Shown: in pieces, positions 4,885 through 27,842 of the stretch
Numbering within the stretch: position 1 is the stretch's first letter
Layout: the number at the start of each line of letters is the position of its first letter
NCBI GenBank assembly: GCA_016196625.1
Contig: JACPXH010000006.1
Location: 32,660-96,659 of the forward strand
Direction: 5' to 3'
DNA from: Candidatus Parcubacteria bacterium
GTDB lineage: Bacteria; Patescibacteriota; Minisyncoccia; JACPXH01
DNA length: 64,000 bases
The notes under the pieces: model-generated
Told to the model about the DNA's origin: nothing
What the model saw: the letters and a program-made list of their open reading frames with translations, nothing else
Database searches by the model: none
Made by a program: the position numbers and the translations under genes

Positions 4885-5373
4885 ATGAGGCAGGAGAATT
4901 TCTTCGAGTGGGTTGGGTTCCGGGACCTCGCCGATCATTGCCTAGACGCGCTCGCGGAGTATGCGCGATCGGGCGAGCTCGCGCCGGAGTGGCGAGCTCC
5001 AATTGAGGAGGCGAGGGAGTTCTGCATTGCTGTGCTTCAGGGCAGGCGCATGCTGGAGACGATGCAGTTTCTGGGGTGGCGGCGAGGGGTTCTCGAGGCC
5101 TGGGAGTGGGCGCACGACGTGATCAAGGTGCTCCGAAAAGAGGAGCATGTCGTGGAGTTCATGGAGGCCGAAGTCAGCCGCTACCTGGCGCTGCTCGATC
5201 TGTTGCTTATCCTGGAGAAGCCCGTGTTCTCGCGTGAGGACAGCGAGGCGCTGACTGTTTTCTTCAAGGCTCTCCGGCAGGTGGCGATGGCAAGGCAGGA
5301 GCGAGAGCGGCAGGAGCGGAACGCCGAACGCGATCCGTTCGGGTCTTGCTATCGTGCCTGCGCGGTGGCGTAA
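4885..5373 (+). CDS. hypothetical protein
   Basis: ATG at 4885 preceded by GAGGAGGTG. The ORF-track start at 4804 overlaps the palindrome and is probably too far upstream. A hairpin terminator follows at 5391-5420. Confidence 0.45.
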   Translation: MRQENFFEWVGFRDLADHCLDALAEYARSGELAPEWRAPIEEAREFCIAVLQGRRMLETMQFLGWRRGVLEAWEWAHDVIKVLRKEEHVVEFMEAEVSRYLALLDLLLILEKPVFSREDSEALTVFFKALRQVAMARQERERQERNAERDPFGSCYRACAVA

Positions 5374-5534
5374 GTGGTGCCGGAGATCTATCAGGGCTGG
5401 AGAGCATGCTCTCCAGCCCTGAACTTTTCCGACAGCAAAGAAAAGGCGCTCCGTCTCGGTACGGGGCGCCTTCCATTTTTGCTGGTTGCTGGTGGTGTGC
5501 AGCCAGCTATTTACGCCCGGCCTGCCTAAGCCGT

Positions 5535-6131
5535 CTAGCGACGGCCGGCCAAGGCCGCCGACAACGTTTCTTCGTCGGCGTACTCTAGGTCCCCGCCCTT
5601 GGGGAGTCCTCGGCCCAGGCGCGTTACGGGAATGTGCAATGACCCAAGCTGACGCTCGAGATAGAGCGCAGTCAGGTCTCCCTCGGTGGTGGGGTTGAAC
5701 GCAAGGACGACCTCGCGAACGTCCTTACCCTTACGGATACGATCAAGAAGCTCGTTGATTCTCACGCGGCGGTTGGCCTCGCGATCTCCGGCTGCGAGCA
5801 GCCCGCCGAGCACGTGGTAGACACCTCTAAACTTTTTGGTTTTTTCAATGGCGATTGCATCAGTTTCTTTTTCGACTGCGGCGATGAGGCCCTGATCGCG
5901 CCTCGGATCATCGCAGACCGAACAGCCCTTGCCGGTCTCGTCCGATGGCAGGAAACATTTTGGGCAGCGGTAGACTTCTGCATCGAGTTTGGCGATTGCT
6001 TCGGCCAGGCTCGCGCGCAGCTCTGTTGGCTGGCGCAAAAGCCAGTACGAGAGCCGGGCCGCAGTGCGCGGGCCGATGGTGGGGAGCTTCATCAGTTCGC
6101 TGATGAGGATTCTGACTGGTTTGGGAAGCAT
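5535..6131 (-). CDS. recR: recombination protein RecR
   Basis: HhH (LISELMKLPTIGPRTAARL), C4 zinc finger (CPKCFLPSDETGKGCSVCDD) and Toprim domain. The start is set at MLPKPV. The 17-aa upstream extension in the ORF track (MLRFARNDE...) is a translation of the hairpin repeat. Confidence 0.9.
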   Translation of the reverse strand: MLPKPVRILISELMKLPTIGPRTAARLSYWLLRQPTELRASLAEAIAKLDAEVYRCPKCFLPSDETGKGCSVCDDPRRDQGLIAAVEKETDAIAIEKTKKFRGVYHVLGGLLAAGDREANRRVRINELLDRIRKGKDVREVVLAFNPTTEGDLTALYLERQLGSLHIPVTRLGRGLPKGGDLEYADEETLSAALAGRR

Positions 6132-23481: not shown

Positions 23482-23527
23482 GCGAAATGACAAGTGCCAA
23501 AGCTCAAACAGTATTTGTGAATAATTC

Positions 23528-24142
23528 ATGAATCAAGACAAGATCAAAAAGTTTCTTGAAACTTTTATTACCAAGCGCGAGCGAACTATTGTCGTTGTTG
23601 ATTTTGGTAACGTAGAAAAATGGAAACATGGGCTTGGTTGGCAGATAGGTATACGAGAACTTGCGTCACTAGTAAAACATTTTACCTATGGCAAGCGTTT
23701 TCTTCGCCGGTTTTACTATGGCGCGGACTACGGCCAAAGCGAAAAATCAACCGAGCTGACTGACTGGTCAAAATATATGCTCCGCACCGCCGATCTGAAC
23801 GGTTTTAAGGTTATAGAGAAGCGCGTGAAATACATACACAGCCCCGACAATGCGCATGGTTTTGAGAAAAAGTGCGATTTGGACATTGAGATGGCAATTG
23901 ATCTTATACGAGAACGGGATAACTACGACAATATTATGCTGTTTTCCGGAGATGGTGATTTGGTTACAGCGCTCAAATATCTCAATGAAGAATATAATAA
24001 GAAGGCGACGATTATGAGCGCCCGGGGTCATATCGGCAGGGAAATTATTGATGCAAAGCGGGACAGAATAATTGAGGAGATTCTTTATGCGGATGATTTT
24101 GAGTATCGGTTAAATATGGATAGATTTCGCAAAAAGAGATGA
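23528..24142 (+). CDS. NYN-domain (LabA-like) protein
   Basis: VVDFGNVEKW ... IMLFSGDGDL matches the NYN/LabA fold signature. The gene and its surroundings are markedly AT-rich compared with flanking DNA. Confidence 0.6.
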   Translation: MNQDKIKKFLETFITKRERTIVVVDFGNVEKWKHGLGWQIGIRELASLVKHFTYGKRFLRRFYYGADYGQSEKSTELTDWSKYMLRTADLNGFKVIEKRVKYIHSPDNAHGFEKKCDLDIEMAIDLIRERDNYDNIMLFSGDGDLVTALKYLNEEYNKKATIMSARGHIGREIIDAKRDRIIEEILYADDFEYRLNMDRFRKKR

Positions 24143-24149
24143 AAAATCA

Positions 24150-24176
24150 GAAGCCCCGCCTTGCGGCAGGGCTTCG
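24150..24176 (+). terminator. hairpin terminator GAAGCCCCGCC-TTGC-GGCAGGGCTTC
   Basis: 11 bp stem directly after the NYN gene stop. No strong T-run. Confidence 0.45.
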
Positions 24177-24360
24177 ATCAAAATCCGTGCAAGCCAATGC
24201 TTACAAATACATAATAGCAAAACCATAGATAAAGTCAACATTTATCCACACCCCACAAAATGACCCAAAACATTCAACAATTAAGAGAGGAGTTTAATGG
24301 CAAAGTCGCGTGGCTCAACAACTATAGGATGACGTCAAGCGTCACTTTAGCATTTGGATT

Positions 24361-24903
24361 TTGGCGTTAAGTTTTTCGCTTGTGGATTTTCAGAAACTTC
24401 TTGCTACCGCAGGTATCCCAGCGAGTCTGGACGTGGTGCTCGCGCTCTTTGCGTTTCTAGCCGCGATTTTCTTCGGGTTTGCCGTCGGGCGTAAGCGCCT
24501 CATCGTCGCGATCCTCTCGGTGTATCTCGCGCGCGTAATCCTGGAAGCGAGTCCAAGCATGTTGGGTTTGCAGCGGATTTCGGGCTTGAAAAATGAGACG
24601 GTGTTCAGTATCGTTATGTTCGGTCTCGTCGCAGCGGCGCTATTCCTGCTGATGGGCCGTTCCATGACCGGCACGCCACTCCGCTTTTTCCGGCGTGACG
24701 GCTCAACCGTGCACACCGTTATTTTTAGCCTGCTTCTCGCGGGGCTACTCGTTAATACGGTCGTGCGGCTTGCAACGCCCGATGCGCTTGTGGCGCTCAC
24801 GCCGCAGGTGCGCCAGTGGTTTTTGGCAGAGCCTGTCCATCTCGCGTGGACAGTATTGCCGATTGCCGCCATTGCCTTTTTGCGACGTAAGCATAGCGAC
24901 TGA
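24361..24903 (+). CDS. hypothetical membrane protein (TTG start)
   Basis: 180 aa ORF with 5-6 hydrophobic helices. Non-ATG start as given in the ORF track. Confidence 0.4.
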   Translation: MALSFSLVDFQKLLATAGIPASLDVVLALFAFLAAIFFGFAVGRKRLIVAILSVYLARVILEASPSMLGLQRISGLKNETVFSIVMFGLVAAALFLLMGRSMTGTPLRFFRRDGSTVHTVIFSLLLAGLLVNTVVRLATPDALVALTPQVRQWFLAEPVHLAWTVLPIAAIAFLRRKHSD

Positions 24904-25033
24904 AAAAGTGTGGGGCAGTTGGATGCGGTTTGATAAAGGAACACCCTCGCTATCGTCCGCCGCTTCGCGGCATGCCGATAGCGCGCTCGCGGGCACGCAA
25001 CCAAATAAATTTGGTTGCTCTCAAGGCCCGCTC

Positions 25034-25107
25034 GCGCCCGTAGCTCAGTCCGGTAGAGCAGCTGGCTTTTAACCAGATGGTCGGAGGTTCGAATCCTCCC
25101 GGGCGCA
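25034..25107 (+). tRNA. tRNA-Lys (anticodon UUU)
   Basis: Cloverleaf: acceptor GCGCCCG/CGGGCGC, D-arm GCTC-AGTCCGGTA-GAGC, anticodon loop CTTTTAA (U33, UUU, A37), T-arm GGAGG-TTCGAAT-CCTCC, discriminator A. CCA is not encoded. Confidence 0.85.
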
Positions 25108-25109
25108 CT

Positions 25110-26018
25110 GTGAAAGCGAATGGTTTCCGAGAGGCCTGCCGACGTTTGAGGACGGACGGCGCCACGCTCGGCGAAATCGTGGCTGCAACGAGACGACCGA
25201 AAAGTTCGGTCTACTTTCACATCCAAGACATTAAACTCTCGGAAGAGTTCCGAGAGGCCCAATACGAGCGAGCCACCAAACGGATTATCGAGTTTAACGA
25301 GAGTCGGAGGGGAAAGAGTGCAGCTGGGCGTCATCCGGTTCCGTTCACTGTTTGGACCGTACCATTCGTTGAGCTAGTCAGTCATTTGTTGTTCGACGGA
25401 GAAATAAGTCGCAACGCGTGCGTGTACACCAACCGGAACCGGATGCTGATTCAGCGCGTGGCGCGGTTGATGCGACGAGTATACGATCATCAACCTCGAG
25501 AACTTGAGTCAACGCCGGGGGTGTATCGGATTTCTTATTATAACGTGGAGCTGGCCGCATACTTGCAGGGGAAAGCGGACGAACTTTTGCAGCGGATTTC
25601 AATCGCTCCACAGGAATTGAAGCTAACATTTCTCCGTTCATTTTTCGACGATGAAGGATCGGTTTATTTCATCCGCAGGAAACGACTGGTTCGGGGCTAT
25701 CAGCACAATGACAGCATTCTTAAACTCGTTCAGCAGCTATTGAAAGACTTTAGCATCAAAAGTAAGACTGACAAGAAATACCACGAGATCGTTATTAGTG
25801 GTCGAGAGCATCTGGAGCGTTTCTCGGCCGAGATCAACTTTTCGCCGTCCGTGGCGGTTAACCCGGATCGAAAAAACAGCATTTGGAGGCGGCCGCTCGA
25901 AAAACGCGAGATACTCCGAGTAGCTCTTGCTTCCTACCGCCGCGACGTTGTGGCCACCCGCTGTCCGTCGAGGCCGATAAGCGTAGACGACGTTACTATG
26001 GGCGCACCAAATGTATAA
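25110..26018 (+). CDS. LAGLIDADG-family homing endonuclease (two-motif, free-standing), GTG start
   Basis: Two LAGLIDADG-like motifs ~100 aa apart (VSHLLFDGEIS and TFLRSFFDDEGSV). Basic N-terminal region. The ORF begins 3 nt after the tRNA-Lys 3' end. The upstream part of the track ORF overlaps the tRNA. Confidence 0.5.
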   Translation: MKANGFREACRRLRTDGATLGEIVAATRRPKSSVYFHIQDIKLSEEFREAQYERATKRIIEFNESRRGKSAAGRHPVPFTVWTVPFVELVSHLLFDGEISRNACVYTNRNRMLIQRVARLMRRVYDHQPRELESTPGVYRISYYNVELAAYLQGKADELLQRISIAPQELKLTFLRSFFDDEGSVYFIRRKRLVRGYQHNDSILKLVQQLLKDFSIKSKTDKKYHEIVISGREHLERFSAEINFSPSVAVNPDRKNSIWRRPLEKREILRVALASYRRDVVATRCPSRPISVDDVTMGAPNV

Positions 26019-26511
26019 CCATCGTCCCGAGAATTATCATTGCCCGCTCTGCCAACTGGCATCGGGAGTTGACCTCGACCAGGACCACTCGCTCCAAAGT
26101 GATCTGGTCTATAAGGACGAGTTAATAATGGCATTTATCGCGAGGGACAAATGGCCCAATAATCCCGGACACGTTCTGATAGCTCCCGTTGGTCATTACG
26201 AAAATATTTATGACCTCCCGGACACGCTTATTCCGAAAATTCATTCGTTAGAAAAACTGATAGCGCTTGGTATCAAGCAGGAGTACCGTTCAGACGGCGT
26301 AAGCTCTCGCCAGCATAACGAGCCGGACGGCGGGCAAGATGTGTGGCACTATCATTTGGCAGTTTTTCCTCGGTATAAAAATGATGAACTCTATCTGAAT
26401 ATATACAAAAGACAAAGAAGTGAGCCGAAAGAACGAGCACAGTACGCGGAGAAACTAAGAAGATACCTTAGCGATAAAGCTGGCCCTCACATCTCCAGTC
26501 TGCACCGATAA
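26011..26511 (+). CDS. HIT-family (histidine triad) hydrolase
   Basis: CPLC N-terminal zinc-binding motif ... VWHYHLAVFP is an HxHxHxx-type triad. AT-rich. Confidence 0.55.
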   Translation: MYNHRPENYHCPLCQLASGVDLDQDHSLQSDLVYKDELIMAFIARDKWPNNPGHVLIAPVGHYENIYDLPDTLIPKIHSLEKLIALGIKQEYRSDGVSSRQHNEPDGGQDVWHYHLAVFPRYKNDELYLNIYKRQRSEPKERAQYAEKLRRYLSDKAGPHISSLHR

Positions 26512-26615
26512 AAACTGCAAAACTTGTCAGCCGAAGCCTTGGCGAAAGAGGGAAACTTGTTTTAACTTGGGAGGAACTTGTTCTTCACCGTCGTATCCGG
26601 TAGTATATAAGTGGT

Positions 26616-27107
26616 ATGTCCCTACACCGGAAAAAGTACCAAAATGCGGTTCTGTACTTGTGCCGGAAGCTAAAAGGCGAAGTACGCGGCAAGAAAAAGC
26701 TAGCGAAACTACTCTATTTCGCAGATTTTGATTTGTACGAGAAAAGTCAGAAATTAATAACTGGTGATGTTTATTATGCGTTTCCAATGGGGCCAGTGCC
26801 ATCTGCGTTGGAAGCAATTACTGCGGAAATGGCAAAAAAGAAAATGCTCGGTGTTGAGCACGTGGAAGAACGAGAAGGGTACAACCTGACGGAAGTATAT
26901 AAGTGTCTTACTGAACCAGACCTTTCTGTATTTGACGATGAAGAAAAGAAAATGCTTGACCGTATTATCGTAAAATATGGTCATCTAACAGGCAAGCAGC
27001 TAGAAGAGTTATCCCACGCCGAAGCACCATATATCGGTACGGAATTGCGAAAACGAATTCCCTACGAACTTGCCTTCTACCGTGGTACAGATTTTAGTGG
27101 TTCATGA
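26616..27107 (+). CDS. Panacea-domain (DUF4065, SocA-like) putative antitoxin
   Basis: KKLAKLLYFADFDLYEKSQKLITGDVYYAFPMGPVPSAL is the Panacea/DUF4065 core. Overlaps the next ORF by 4 nt (ATGA). Confidence 0.6.
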   Translation: MSLHRKKYQNAVLYLCRKLKGEVRGKKKLAKLLYFADFDLYEKSQKLITGDVYYAFPMGPVPSALEAITAEMAKKKMLGVEHVEEREGYNLTEVYKCLTEPDLSVFDDEEKKMLDRIIVKYGHLTGKQLEELSHAEAPYIGTELRKRIPYELAFYRGTDFSGS

Positions 27108-27472
27108 TTCAGTTTCTGTACCACGACAGCTTTCAGAAAGAAATCGCCGCCCTAGAGCGGCGCTTTCATACTATACGCGATGGTCTTTCTGCGTTTGAGA
27201 AATTGTGTGAAGTACAATTCAATCCAGCAAGTCCGCGACAGGTGATTGCGCCCGCAAAATTGCATCGTGTCACGCAAAACGATATTTGGACGCTCTGGAA
27301 AGTTGAGCTTGTTGTACCGAATTCCGGCTTGCGTCCGAACCAGTGGCCACGAATGTGGTTTGTAGTGAGGGGCGCGATTATTGCGTTTTTGTGCGTCTCG
27401 TCTCATATTGGTAACTACAACGATGAGAGTATGAATCGCCTTGCTTTGTCGAGGGCGTCCGACTTCTTTTGA
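27104..27472 (+). CDS. putative toxin partner, RelE/ParE-like C-terminus
   Basis: N-terminus MIQFLYHDSFQKEIAALERR and C-terminus RMWFVVRGAIIAFLCVSSHIGNY resemble RelE/HigB (R..Y.v....iIl.v.hH..Y). Translationally coupled to the Panacea gene. Confidence 0.4.
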   Translation: MIQFLYHDSFQKEIAALERRFHTIRDGLSAFEKLCEVQFNPASPRQVIAPAKLHRVTQNDIWTLWKVELVVPNSGLRPNQWPRMWFVVRGAIIAFLCVSSHIGNYNDESMNRLALSRASDFF

Positions 27473-27516
27473 TGCTAGCTGCAGCTTTTTTTTGTTGAGA
27501 GATTTCGGAAGCGAGG

Positions 27517-27560
27517 GCGGTCAGTCAATATCAACAGGCGGCCGGAACGGCCGCCTGTTG
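27517..27560 (+). terminator. rho-independent terminator (AATATCAACAGGCGGCC-GGAA-CGGCCGCCTGTTGATATT + TTTAG)
   Basis: Perfect 17 bp stem, then ATATTTTA. Confidence 0.7.
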
Positions 27561-27842
27561 ATATTTTAGAGGTCTTGCGTCTGTCGCGGTTTTCAGCTAT
27601 CTATAGGGAGGGTGTCCTTTTGCAACGAATCGAAGTAGATGATCTCGCTGGAGGACTTTGCCTCGCCCTCCTTGTTATCACGGCCCTTGTAGTTTTTGCC
27701 GCACCACTCGCACCTGATATTCCCGCCTGTTCCGCCTCCGCTCTCCCCAAACAGCCCCTACGTCTCCTCAAACCGCGCCATGGCGAACCTCCTCTCTCGG
27801 GTTCGGGAAGCTGCAGGTTTGCGATTGCTGCTTCGAGGAGAT

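What the first reader, a model, noticed from the sequence alone, without database searches (positions are those of the whole stretch)
23500..27560. AT-rich island at tRNA-Lys(UUU): NYN protein, LAGLIDADG endonuclease abutting the tRNA, HIT protein and a Panacea-antitoxin/RelE-like pair
GC drops sharply across ~23.5-27.5 kb relative to dnaJ upstream and the high-GC block downstream.

The segment encodes a NYN/LabA-like protein, a membrane protein and tRNA-Lys. Starting 3 nt after the tRNA 3' end there is a two-motif LAGLIDADG homing-endonuclease-like ORF (VSHLLFDGEIS ... FLRSFFDDEGSV). Then come a HIT hydrolase and a translationally coupled pair: a Panacea/DUF4065 antitoxin and a RelE/ParE-like toxin candidate.

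No integrase is present. A free-standing LAGLIDADG gene at a tRNA is unusual in bacteria, and it may be what mobilises the island or targets the tRNA locus.
Basis: partly seen in the sequence, partly recalled or inferred. Interest (0 to 1): 0.55.

Follow-up and report, generated by a model that had tools for sequence, protein, structure and literature searches.

The report
Homing endonuclease gene parked on tRNA-Lys
A selfish gene for a DNA-cutting enzyme sits flush against the end of the lysine tRNA gene in this ultra-small (CPR/Parcubacteria) bacterium and in about 80 related species. It comes and goes between close relatives and probably rides on the tRNA's transcript, while the surrounding "island" is a patchwork of separate accessory-gene insertions.

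Summary
All six genes and the tRNA are present, and every domain call holds except that the toxin is RelE/ParE-like by predicted fold only. The segment is not one AT-rich island. The membrane gene and tRNA have native GC. Against the nearest relative (L093, DnaJ 88%), the NYN gene (23509-24351) and the LAGLIDADG gene (25109-25998) are two separate window-only segments, and HIT is shared at 92%.

The LAGLIDADG ORF belongs to a conserved ~276-aa family. In 77 of 80 species found by the protein alone, it lies directly 3' of tRNA-Lys(UUU). In 46 of 79 loci only one base separates the discriminator from the start codon (A|C|ATG; window A|CT|GTG).

Evidence that it is a mobile homing endonuclease gene:
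- Invariant catalytic D96 and E182, and an I-DmoI-like fold.
- Absent, intact or frameshifted among genomes whose neighbouring holA is at least 77% identical.
- A 99.6%-identical tRNA+gene tract in two genomes whose flanks are 72-90% identical.
- Displaced tRNA 3' halves directly after its stop codon in eight loci. In the window this is TGGGCGCACCA at 25999-26009.

Expression by co-transcription with the tRNA and a near-leaderless mRNA is inferred. I found no description of this family in the literature searched.

The parts
25034..25107 (+). tRNA-Lys(UUU). No CCA is encoded. Discriminator A25107 is followed by CT and then the GTG start of the endonuclease gene.
   Evidence: ARAGORN. Rfam RF00005, 73.4 bits. 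It is 93% identical to the tRNA-Lys beside the closest endonuclease homologue (L106), but only 81% identical to the functional tRNA-Lys of the closest genomic relative (L093).
25110..26018 (+). Free-standing, two-motif (monomeric) LAGLIDADG homing endonuclease gene of 302 aa. The N-terminus is a three-helix HTH (residues about 4-38). Catalytic D96 is at 25395-25397 and E182 at 25653-25655. The last ~25 aa are a disordered read-through tail.
   Evidence: PF14528, 1.5e-10. Matches to the intein endonuclease parts of archaeal RFC, IF-2 and RNAP A'' models. Alignment A1 fixes the start and shows the invariant residues. AlphaFold pLDDT 87.7, with residues 283-299 below 50. Foldseek: TliVMA intein endonuclease 1.2e-7, I-DmoI 4e-7.
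25999..26009 (+). Displaced remnant of the former tRNA-Lys 3' end, TGGGCGCACCA (acceptor strand, discriminator and CCA). It lies inside the tail of the endonuclease ORF, one base before the HIT start codon. With 25101-25108 it forms an 8-nt direct repeat (GGGCGCAC) that brackets the endonuclease gene.
   Evidence: It is homologous to the longer remnant GGTTCGATTCCTAGTGGGCGCACCA in L093, which directly precedes the HIT start codon there. It is the only exact GGGCGCACC in the 64-kb window. Equivalent tRNA 3' halves follow the endonuclease stop codon in L069, L047, L020, L012, L055, L056 and L048.
23509..24351 (+). Window-only 843-bp insertion carrying the NYN/LabA-like gene (23528-24142, GC 0.415) and its terminator hairpin (24150-24175).
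   Evidence: PF01936, 2.5e-15. PADLOC NYN 1.7e-7. The segment is absent between dnaJ and the membrane gene in L093 and L094.
24361..24903 (+). Conserved backbone membrane protein of 180 aa, with native GC (0.567). It is not part of any insertion.
   Evidence: No family match. Orthologues lie between dnaJ and tRNA-Lys in L093 (85% aa), L094 (81%) and L097/L098 (27%).
26011..26511 (+). HIT-family hydrolase gene (GC 0.469). It overlaps the endonuclease stop codon by 8 nt. The nearest relative has it at the same position.
   Evidence: PF01230, 1.8e-13. 92% nt and 94% aa identity to L093, where it directly follows the tRNA remnant.
26616..27107 (+). Panacea (SocA-like, DUF4065) antitoxin-type protein.
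   Evidence: PF13274, 2e-21, 77.5 bits against a cut-off of 25.7. NCBIfam SocA_antitoxin 4e-6, below its cut-off.
27104..27472 (+). Toxin candidate of 122 aa with a RelE/ParE-superfamily fold. It is translationally coupled to the Panacea gene (ATGA overlap).
   Evidence: No profile-library match. The family is small: 73 representatives at 50% identity among 1.84 billion proteins. AlphaFold pLDDT 96.3, topology beta-alpha-alpha-beta4-alpha. Top Foldseek matches are HP0892, YafQ, HigB1, YoeB and RelE, with probability 0.97-0.99 and TM 0.5-0.6.
27527..27565 (.). Perfect 18-bp inverted repeat closing the low-GC block. It is probably a terminator.
   Evidence: Repeat I2.

Best explanation
The ORF at 25110-26018 is an intact member of a family of free-standing, monomeric (two-motif) LAGLIDADG homing endonuclease genes. 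Their niche is the 3' end of the tRNA-Lys(UUU) gene in Parcubacteria/Paceibacteria.

**Shown**
- The protein has the LAGLIDADG fold, with both catalytic acidic residues invariant across the family, plus an N-terminal HTH.
- The gene is found almost only directly after tRNA-Lys(UUU), on the same strand. Usually one base separates the discriminator from the ATG.
- It is present, absent or broken among very close relatives.
- It can be nearly identical between genomes whose flanks have diverged.
- Its arrival often leaves the displaced 3' part of the resident tRNA behind it, as in the window.

**Inferred**
- The enzyme cuts tRNA-Lys loci that lack the gene, in or next to the 3' half of the tRNA gene.
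- Repair copies the donor's tRNA 3' part plus the endonuclease gene. When the flanks are homologous, the insertion is clean. When only the tRNA provides homology, the old tRNA 3' half remains as a scar.
- There is no room for a promoter or ribosome-binding site. The gene must therefore be transcribed from the tRNA promoter.
- Processing of the CCA-less tRNA 3' end (an RNase Z-type cut after the discriminator) would release an mRNA with a 1-2 nt leader. That mRNA would be translated in leaderless mode, a bacterial version of mitochondrial "tRNA punctuation".

**The rest of the segment**
It is unrelated cargo at a recombination-prone tRNA flank. It consists of an independent NYN-gene insertion, and an older low-GC block holding the HIT gene and a Panacea/RelE-like toxin-antitoxin pair.
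For: **Identity of the protein**
- PF14528 scores above its cut-off.
- D96/G97 and D181/E182/G183 are invariant in 27 sequences.
- The predicted fold matches the TliVMA intein endonuclease and I-DmoI.

**Site specificity**
- Of 80 loci recovered by protein similarity alone, 77 have tRNA-Lys(UUU) immediately upstream on the same strand.
- These fall into at least three unrelated neighbourhoods, and the unit occurs in both orientations relative to the same flanking blocks.
- The spacer from discriminator to start codon is 1 nt in 46 of 79 loci and at most 4 nt in 59 of 79.
- As a control, none of 53 other tRNAs in the same loci has an ORF start within 5 nt of its 3' end.

**Mobility**
- The nearest relative, L093, lacks exactly window 25109-25998.
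- Among genomes whose holA is at least 77% identical to that of L030, L101, L103 and L105 are empty, L102 is intact, and L104 is frameshifted.
- L080 carries an internal stop codon.
- L076 and L078 differ at 5 of 1135 positions across the upstream region, tRNA and endonuclease gene. Identity then falls to 72-90% starting at the stop codon.
- tRNA 3' halves follow the stop codon in eight loci.
- The same database holds 199 clusters of this family against 1543 clusters of the adjacent holA.
- The window's tRNA is 93% identical to the tRNA beside the closest endonuclease homologue, but only 81% identical to the tRNA of the closest genome.

**Selection**
- dN/dS is 0.04-0.075, which implies a working protein.

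**Not an intron**
- Rfam finds only the tRNA.
Against: - No cleavage activity or target site has been demonstrated.
- The tRNA 3' ends vary between lineages (GGGCGGA, GGGCGCA, GGGGGCA). It is unclear what the conserved recognition sequence is, or how alleles that carry the gene escape self-cleavage.
- Intact copies are as conserved as PolA (mean identity 0.53 against 0.57). Their divergence correlates with that of neighbouring genes (Pearson r 0.56-0.73). Clades of the endonuclease largely follow gene context. Spread therefore looks mostly vertical or within a lineage, which also fits a host-beneficial gene.
- The L076/L078 tract starts at a contig end, so a strain-chimeric assembly cannot be fully excluded.
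- The frameshift in L104 and the stop codon in L080 could be MAG sequencing errors.
- The sample for presence or absence is small (five informative loci, plus L093 and L097; in L098 the contig ends ~60 nt past the tRNA).
- The window uses GTG, a poor start codon for leaderless translation in E. coli.
- A sub-clade (L002-L009) has a 27-35 nt spacer (888 nt in L009) containing a TAYAAT box, so processing of the tRNA transcript is not the only route to expression.
Confidence: 0.8

Rival explanations
1. The protein is a domesticated LAGLIDADG protein, like WhiA: a host DNA-binding regulator or a factor for tRNA-Lys expression or maturation. It would be kept next to the tRNA because it works on that tRNA or with it, not because it is mobile.
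For: - dN/dS is 0.04-0.075, and sequence conservation equals that of PolA and the Mur ligase.
- It has an N-terminal HTH.
- Its divergence correlates with that of neighbouring genes, and its clades track gene context.
- WhiA structures appear among the fold matches.
Against: - Both catalytic acidic residues are invariant. From established knowledge, WhiA has lost them.
- The gene is absent from the nearest relatives of the window and of L030, and is frameshifted or carries a stop codon in others.
- A conversion tract ends at the gene's stop codon.
- tRNA remnants mark insertion scars.
- The family has only 199 clusters, against 1543 for the adjacent holA.
Confidence: 0.1
2. One reading: 23.5-27.5 kb is a single integrase-less genomic island inserted at tRNA-Lys. 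The LAGLIDADG enzyme mobilises the whole block.
For: - The accessory-type genes (NYN, HIT, toxin-antitoxin pair) have low GC (0.415-0.48) against 0.567 for the window.
- The tRNA-Lys 3' flank is variable: L097 and L098 share an identical DnaJ protein but diverge right after the tRNA.
Against: - The NYN gene lies upstream of the tRNA, separated from it by a native-GC backbone gene.
- The NYN and LAGLIDADG genes are separate indels relative to L093, while HIT is shared at 92%.
- No tRNA-derived repeat lies near 27.5 kb.
- In 80 other loci the endonuclease travels without NYN, HIT or the toxin-antitoxin pair.
Confidence: 0.04
3. The gene is a decaying remnant of an intron- or intein-encoded endonuclease, or the adjacency to the tRNA is a chance or annotation artefact.
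For: CPR genomes are rich in LAGLIDADG genes inside rRNA introns (PMC11270868).
Against: - No intron RNA was detected.
- No host ORF frames the gene as an intein would require.
- The adjacency recurs in 77 of 80 independent species.
- The ORF is intact and under purifying selection.
Confidence: 0.02

Closest known systems
Monomeric double-motif LAGLIDADG homing endonucleases (I-DmoI; intein-associated enzymes such as the TliVMA intein endonuclease and PI-PfuI)
   Same: It has two LAGLIDADG alpha-beta-beta-alpha-beta-beta-alpha domains in one chain, with an acidic residue at the end of each motif helix. These are the best structural matches and the best profile matches.
   Different: It is not inside an intron or an intein. 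It carries an extra N-terminal HTH of about 80 aa. Sequence identity to solved enzymes is only 12-18%. Its target is the flank of a tRNA gene, not an rRNA or protein-coding site.
LAGLIDADG genes in rRNA insertion sequences and group I introns of CPR bacteria (Tsurumaki et al. 2024, PMC11270868)
   Same: Same host phylum and same enzyme superfamily. That paper notes LAGLIDADG_3 proteins with an N-terminal non-domain region. In both cases the target is a highly conserved RNA gene.
   Different: Most of those are single-domain LAGLIDADG_1 or _2 proteins encoded inside rRNA genes, and LAGLIDADG_3 was reported only in 16S insertions. This family is free-standing, has two motifs, and lies outside the tRNA it abuts. 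tRNA is not mentioned in that paper.
Free-standing phage homing endonucleases that act by intronless homing, especially T4 SegB in the tRNA gene cluster (PMC2330249)
   Same: The endonuclease gene stands alone next to tRNA genes. Its inheritance drags the neighbouring tRNA sequence along by co-conversion.
   Different: SegB is a GIY-YIG enzyme in a phage and has its own expression signals. Here a LAGLIDADG enzyme sits in a cellular chromosome, with its start codon fused to the tRNA 3' end.
Mitochondrial free-standing LAGLIDADG and GIY-YIG ORFs, and the mitochondrial tRNA punctuation model (established knowledge; fungal survey PMC7487136)
   Same: In both, endonuclease ORFs insert at the 3' ends of conserved genes and can displace or duplicate the original 3' end. 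In mitochondria, excision of a flanking tRNA produces leaderless mRNAs.
   Different: Those cases are organellar. I did not find this arrangement described for a bacterial chromosome in the literature searched.
Integrase-mediated genomic islands at tRNA genes
   Same: The 3' end of a tRNA gene is the insertion point, and a duplicated tRNA 3' fragment is left downstream.
   Different: There is no integrase. The unit is a single 0.9-kb ORF. The repeat brackets only that ORF. The likely mechanism is repair of a double-strand break, not site-specific recombination.
PanA-PanT (Panacea-domain) toxin-antitoxin pairs (Kurata et al. 2022, PMC8832971)
   Same: A Panacea/DUF4065 protein is translationally coupled to a small toxin-like protein.
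   Different: The partner matches no named toxin family by sequence and is RelE/ParE-like by predicted fold only. Toxicity and neutralisation are untested.

Membership tests
LAGLIDADG homing endonuclease (monomeric, two-motif) | Profile match to a LAGLIDADG family above the curated threshold | tested here: met
   PF14528 LAGLIDADG_3 scores 41.6 bits against a cut-off of 22.5. This covers the second domain. NCBIfam intein-containing models align across residues 63-252.
LAGLIDADG homing endonuclease (monomeric, two-motif) | Two LAGLIDADG motifs, each ending in a catalytic Asp or Glu | tested here: met
   HLLFDG (D96) and FFDDEG (E182) are invariant in 27 sequences that are 43-60% identical to the window protein.
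LAGLIDADG homing endonuclease (monomeric, two-motif) | Pseudo-dimeric alpha-beta-beta-alpha-beta-beta-alpha fold | tested here: met
   The AlphaFold model has pLDDT 87.7. Foldseek gives probability 1.00 to the TliVMA intein endonuclease, I-DmoI, I-Tsp061I and PI-PfuI over about 182 aligned columns.
LAGLIDADG homing endonuclease (monomeric, two-motif) | Site-specific double-strand cleavage of alleles that lack the gene | not testable with these tools
   This needs a biochemical assay. The target site is only inferred, from empty and occupied sites and from the remnants.
LAGLIDADG homing endonuclease (monomeric, two-motif) | Mobility: presence/absence polymorphism at one site, degenerate copies, conversion tracts | tested here: met
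   - Empty sites: L093, L101, L103, L105.
- Intact copies: L102, L030.
- Broken copies: L104, L080.
- L076 and L078 share a 99.6%-identical tract that ends at the gene's stop codon.
Intron- or intein-encoded endonuclease | The ORF is embedded in a self-splicing intron or framed in a host protein | tested here: not met
   Rfam finds only the tRNA. The ORF starts 2 nt after the tRNA and ends inside the HIT start region. No intron-sized non-coding sequence is present.
WhiA-type domesticated LAGLIDADG regulator | Catalytic residues lost, and near-universal vertical inheritance in the clade | tested here: not met
   The catalytic D and E are invariant. The gene is absent from close relatives. The loss of catalytic residues in WhiA is taken from established knowledge and was not tested here.
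tRNA-integrated genomic island | An integrase/recombinase gene, and direct repeats of the tRNA 3' end bounding the whole island | tested here: not met
   No integrase domain was found in the ORFs scanned. The only tRNA-derived repeat is at 26000-26007, and none lies near 27.5 kb.
tRNA-integrated genomic island | The block is absent as a single unit from relatives, and its composition is uniformly foreign | tested here: not met
   Relative to L093 there are two separate indels, and HIT is shared. The membrane gene and tRNA have native GC.
Panacea (PanA) antitoxin with a cognate toxin | A Panacea/DUF4065 domain, and an adjacent co-directional toxin gene | tested here: met
   PF13274 scores 77.5 bits against a cut-off of 25.7. 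It overlaps the downstream ORF by 4 nt.
Panacea (PanA) antitoxin with a cognate toxin | The toxin arrests growth and the Panacea protein neutralises it | not testable with these tools
   This requires expression assays.
RelE/ParE toxin superfamily | A sequence-profile match to a RelE, ParE, HigB, YafQ or YoeB family | tested here: not met
   There is no match in Pfam, NCBIfam or PADLOC for the protein or for 37 homologues. There is no PDB sequence match.
RelE/ParE toxin superfamily | The RelE-like microbial RNase fold | tested here: met
   The model has pLDDT 96.3 and topology beta-alpha-alpha-beta4-alpha. The top matches are HP0892, YafQ, HigB1, YoeB and RelE, with probability 0.97-0.99, TM 0.5-0.6 and E about 1e-2. 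K66, R83, H101 and Y105 are conserved.

The most novel reading that the evidence does not exclude
This family may be the first bacterial chromosomal case of a homing endonuclease gene fused to the 3' end of an essential tRNA gene.

- It would be expressed by "tRNA punctuation". Processing of the tRNA 3' end would create a leaderless mRNA whose AUG begins 1-2 nt after the discriminator.
- Its homing would drag the tRNA-Lys(UUU) allele along. The element would then drive replacement, pseudogenisation and inversion of an essential tRNA gene across Paceibacteria.
- Possible traces of this are the displaced tRNA halves, the split pseudo-tRNA in L093, the opposite tRNA orientations in near-identical neighbourhoods, and the C1:G72 versus G1:C72 acceptor variants.
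Probability: 0.4. Interest if true: 0.75.

Novelty: new variant of a known kind. Interest (0 to 1): 0.62.

Why it matters
Homing endonucleases are usually studied inside introns and inteins, or as free-standing phage genes. Here a free-standing LAGLIDADG lineage has colonised one exact spot, the last base of tRNA-Lys(UUU), across a large uncultured bacterial radiation.

This offers three things:
- A natural system in which a protein-coding gene has no promoter and no ribosome-binding site of its own. It must depend on the tRNA's transcription and processing, so leaderless translation in CPR bacteria becomes directly testable.
- A new set of compact, monomeric, HTH-extended LAGLIDADG scaffolds. 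Their targets can be inferred from paired empty and occupied sites, which could be useful for engineering.
- A mechanism for turnover, scarring and inversion of an essential tRNA gene that involves no integrase.

It also corrects the annotation. The NCBI start codon lies inside the tRNA, and most family members are labelled "hypothetical protein".

Tried and rejected
- **Metagenome scan with a tRNA-Lys pattern.** My variable gap was one base too short. I replaced it with an unbiased sample taken through homologues of the neighbouring holA gene.
- **Exact look-up of the window's DnaJ.** It found nothing. I used a homology search instead.
- **A core, domesticated gene.** This was my working idea, given near-universal tRNA linkage, PolA-like conservation and correlated divergence. 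I rejected it as the main explanation once empty and broken sites in close relatives, and the L076/L078 tract, were seen.
- **A group I intron or other structured RNA around the ORF.** Rfam finds none.
- **Homology between the window's endonuclease tail (25851-25998) and the 113-nt spacer of L093.** It is no better than shuffled sequence. The shared remnant is only 25999-26009.
- **A promoter and terminator scan of 23.4-27.7 kb.** It found nothing convincing on the + strand near the endonuclease gene, and counts were close to shuffle expectation.
- **L068 against L074.** The endonuclease gene is somewhat more diverged than its flanks (about 72% against about 82%). This suggests allele replacement but is not decisive.
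- **Sequence searches of the toxin candidate against the PDB and of the endonuclease profile against the PDB.** They gave nothing useful beyond an HTH match to 2lvs.

Full report
**What is in the window**

The window comes from a Candidatus Parcubacteria MAG. The endonuclease protein is identical to NCBI HYZ80_01595, on a 97-kb contig.

- ARAGORN and Rfam place a single tRNA-Lys(UUU) at 25034-25107.
- Pfam confirms four domains: NYN (23528-24142), LAGLIDADG_3 (ORF ending at 26018), HIT (26011-26511) and Panacea/SocA (26616-27107).
- The membrane protein (24361-24903) and the 122-aa ORF at 27104-27472 match no family in Pfam, NCBIfam or PADLOC.

**Composition**

GC does not fall across the whole segment.

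| Feature | GC |
|---|---|
| dnaJ | 0.615 |
| NYN | 0.415 |
| membrane gene | 0.567 |
| LAGLIDADG | 0.518 |
| HIT | 0.469 |
| Panacea | 0.427 |
| toxin candidate | 0.482 |
| whole window | 0.567 |

The sliding profile shows two low-GC patches separated by native-GC DNA that includes the tRNA. Similar patches occur elsewhere in the window.

**The LAGLIDADG gene and its start**

A database search found 199 clusters of a well-conserved family of about 276 aa, all from Parcubacteria-type sources.

- In an alignment of 27 members, the N-termini coincide with GTG 25110, not with the ATG at 25077 inside the tRNA.
- D96/G97 and D181/E182/G183 are invariant.
- The window protein alone carries a 25-aa C-terminal extension.
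- The AlphaFold model has mean pLDDT 87.7. It shows an N-terminal three-helix bundle, a long helix and two alpha-beta-beta-alpha-beta-beta-alpha domains. The extension is disordered.
- Foldseek places the model with the TliVMA intein endonuclease and I-DmoI.

**The key comparative result**

A scan of one genome per GTDB species, using protein patterns only, confirmed relatives in 126 stretches. I kept 80 loci.

- In 77 of the 80, a tRNA-Lys(UUU) lies immediately upstream on the same strand.
- The three exceptions are a contig edge (L045), an ARAGORN anticodon mis-call (L067), and one Omnitrophota locus without the tRNA (L075).
- I refined each tRNA end by acceptor-stem pairing. The spacer from discriminator to start codon is then 1 nt in 46 of 79 loci (43 read A|C|ATG), at most 4 nt in 59, and at most 8 nt in 66. 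The start codon is ATG in 72.
- The window reads A|CT|GTG.
- None of 53 other tRNAs in these loci has an ORF starting within 5 nt of its end.
- A sub-clade (L002-L009) instead has a 27-35 nt spacer (888 nt in L009) with a TAYAAT box about 9 nt before the start codon.

**Neighbourhoods**

The tRNA-plus-endonuclease unit sits among housekeeping genes.

- Most often it lies between TsaE-PolA-holA and DoxX-SpoU-LTD protein-Mur ligase-RuvA-S20, in either orientation relative to those blocks.
- It also lies after grpE-dnaK-dnaJ, as in the window.
- A third context is unrelated to both.

The linkage is therefore to the tRNA, not to a chromosomal region.

**Selfish or domesticated?**

Intact copies look like good citizens.
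- Mean pairwise identity is 0.53. That compares with 0.57 for PolA, 0.53 for the Mur ligase, 0.36 for holA and 0.47 for RuvA.
- Divergence correlates with that of neighbouring genes (Pearson r 0.56-0.73).
- dN/dS is 0.04-0.075.
- Clades largely follow gene context.

The distribution, however, is that of a mobile element.
- *The window's own lineage.* The closest relative (L093, DnaJ 88%) is colinear through dnaJ (86.6%), the membrane gene plus tRNA (74.8%) and HIT (92%). It lacks window 23509-24351 (NYN) and 25109-25998 (LAGLIDADG). L094 also lacks NYN. L097 lacks the endonuclease; in L098 the contig ends ~60 nt after the tRNA.
- *An unbiased sample.* I took genomes whose holA is at least 77% identical to that of the carrier L030. 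Three sites were empty (L101, L103, L105), one was intact (L102), one was frameshifted (L104), and one contig end was uninformative. L080 has an internal stop codon.
- *Family size.* The same database holds 1543 holA clusters against 199 for the endonuclease.
- *A conversion tract.* L076 and L078 differ at only 5 of 1135 positions across the upstream 191 nt, the tRNA and the endonuclease gene. From the stop codon onward, identity falls through 0.97, 0.92 and 0.86 to 72-90%. Correspondingly, dS is 0.0 for the endonuclease but 0.40-0.65 for holA and PolA.

**Insertion anatomy**

Where both flanks are homologous, the insertion is ORF-only.
- Empty L105 reads ...TGGGCGCA CC CCTTTAGAT, followed by the stop codon of the convergent LTD-protein gene.
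- Occupied L030 and L102 read ...GGGCGCA C(AT) ATG...TAG. The endonuclease stop codon overlaps or abuts that same convergent stop codon.

Elsewhere a displaced tRNA 3' half follows the endonuclease stop codon. This is seen in L047 (whole T-arm plus CCA), L020, L012, L055, L069, L048 and L056.

The window shows the same thing. TGGGCGCACCA at 25999-26009 is the only exact GGGCGCACC in the 64 kb. It is homologous to L093's GGTTCGATTCCTAGTGGGCGCACCA, which lies directly before the HIT start codon. It makes an 8-nt direct repeat with the live tRNA's end (25101-25108). This explains the disordered C-terminal tail: the ORF reads through the scar into the HIT start.

It brackets only the 0.9-kb endonuclease gene, and nothing comparable lies near 27.5 kb.

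The window's tRNA is 93% identical to the tRNA beside the closest endonuclease homologue (L106, 59% protein identity, unrelated context). It is 81% identical to L093's functional tRNA. This hints that the tRNA and the endonuclease gene arrived together.

**Mechanism**

What is shown is the enzyme class, the site specificity, the polymorphism, the conversion tract and the scars.

What is inferred:
- The enzyme cleaves empty tRNA-Lys loci in or near the tRNA 3' half.
- Repair from a carrier allele copies the tRNA 3' part together with the gene.
- If only the tRNA offers homology, the old 3' half is left behind.
- With 1-2 nt between the tRNA and the start codon, there is no space for a promoter or a Shine-Dalgarno sequence. 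No convincing promoter was found either.
- The gene must therefore be co-transcribed with the tRNA. 3' processing of this CCA-less tRNA would leave a near-leaderless mRNA.
- GUG-initiated leaderless mRNAs are known outside E. coli (PMC3848588).
- The TAYAAT sub-clade reaches a similarly short leader by a different route.

**The rest of the segment**

- NYN is an independent 843-bp, low-GC insertion with its own terminator hairpin.
- HIT is shared with L093 and is older.
- The Panacea gene and the next ORF overlap by 4 nt.
- That next ORF has a small family of 73 representatives and a very confident model. Its best structural matches are all RelE/ParE-superfamily toxins: HP0892, YafQ, HigB1, YoeB and RelE. 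The pairing fits the PanA-PanT concept (PMC8832971).

**Literature**

Searches of the held library found no description of a tRNA-Lys-linked LAGLIDADG family.
- The CPR rRNA-insertion study does not mention tRNA (PMC11270868).
- The Patescibacteria tRNA-intron study reports only HNH endonucleases, in tRNA-Asn introns (PMC13011429).
- The nearest functional analogy is T4 SegB in the phage tRNA cluster (PMC2330249).

**Verdict**

The "island" reading is wrong. The suggestion that the LAGLIDADG gene targets the tRNA locus is right, and it generalises to a previously undescribed, widespread and apparently active family.

Noticed in passing
L093:1608-1842: In the closest relative, the resident tRNA-Lys is a split pseudogene. 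Its 5' fragment is GCGCCCATAGCTCAATTGG and its 3' part is ...CTAGG[38-nt hairpin]TTCGATTCCTAGTGGGCGCACCA. Between them lies an insert that carries a complete, different tRNA-Lys(UUU). Both inserts are bounded by CCCCGCA...TGCGGGG inverted repeats, which suggests a small hairpin-ended element. HIT starts 1 nt after the pseudo-tRNA's CCA.
   Followed up: partly
L101:4819-4892, L103:5163-5236 versus L105:4789-4863, L102:4263-4337: Among genomes with holA at least 77% identical, the tRNA-Lys gene lies in opposite orientations between the same holA and LTD-protein genes, together with about 85 nt of its upstream region. This happens with or without the endonuclease. The whole tRNA-plus-endonuclease unit likewise occurs in both orientations across the 80 loci.
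   Followed up: partly
L097:11830-11903 versus L098:10191-10266: Two genomes share an identical DnaJ protein and identical sequence through the tRNA-Lys. They diverge completely right after ...GGGCGCAC. The tRNA-Lys 3' end is therefore a recombination or insertion hotspot even where there is no endonuclease.
   Followed up: no
L001-L080 tRNA-Lys genes (alignment): About half of these Paceibacteria tRNA-Lys(UUU) genes begin with C1 paired to G72 (CCGCCCA...TGGGCGG) instead of the usual G1:C72. Nearly all lack an encoded CCA and have C after the discriminator.
   Followed up: no
L009:5104-5991: An 888-nt insertion holding an unannotated ORF (5335-5808) separates the tRNA from the endonuclease gene. 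The gene then has a TATAAT box about 8 nt before its GTG start.
   Followed up: no
window:29692-30066 (-): A VapC/PIN toxin gene (PF01850, 2.4e-22) lies in another low-GC patch (29-30.2 kb). Accessory toxin-antitoxin genes in low-GC patches recur in this window.
   Followed up: no
window:21438-22400 (+): A 320-aa predicted membrane protein with no family match is wedged between dnaK and dnaJ. It is conserved at about 39-43% identity in L094-L096.
   Followed up: no
window:24390-25334 (-): A 314-aa antisense ORF spans the membrane gene, the tRNA and the start of the endonuclease gene. It is a spurious high-GC ORF that can mislead gene callers. It displaced the real gene in my first greedy ORF selection.
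   Followed up: yes
L076:2998-3197 versus L078: A second block of 98-100% identity, about 200 nt long, lies inside the otherwise ~83%-identical holA region of this genome pair. It may be another short conversion tract.
   Followed up: no
window:26011-26018: The endonuclease stop codon (TAA 26016-26018) overlaps the HIT start codon (ATG 26011) in the sequence ATGTATAA. HIT may therefore be translationally coupled to the inserted gene. In L093 the same ATG follows the tRNA remnant directly.
   Followed up: no
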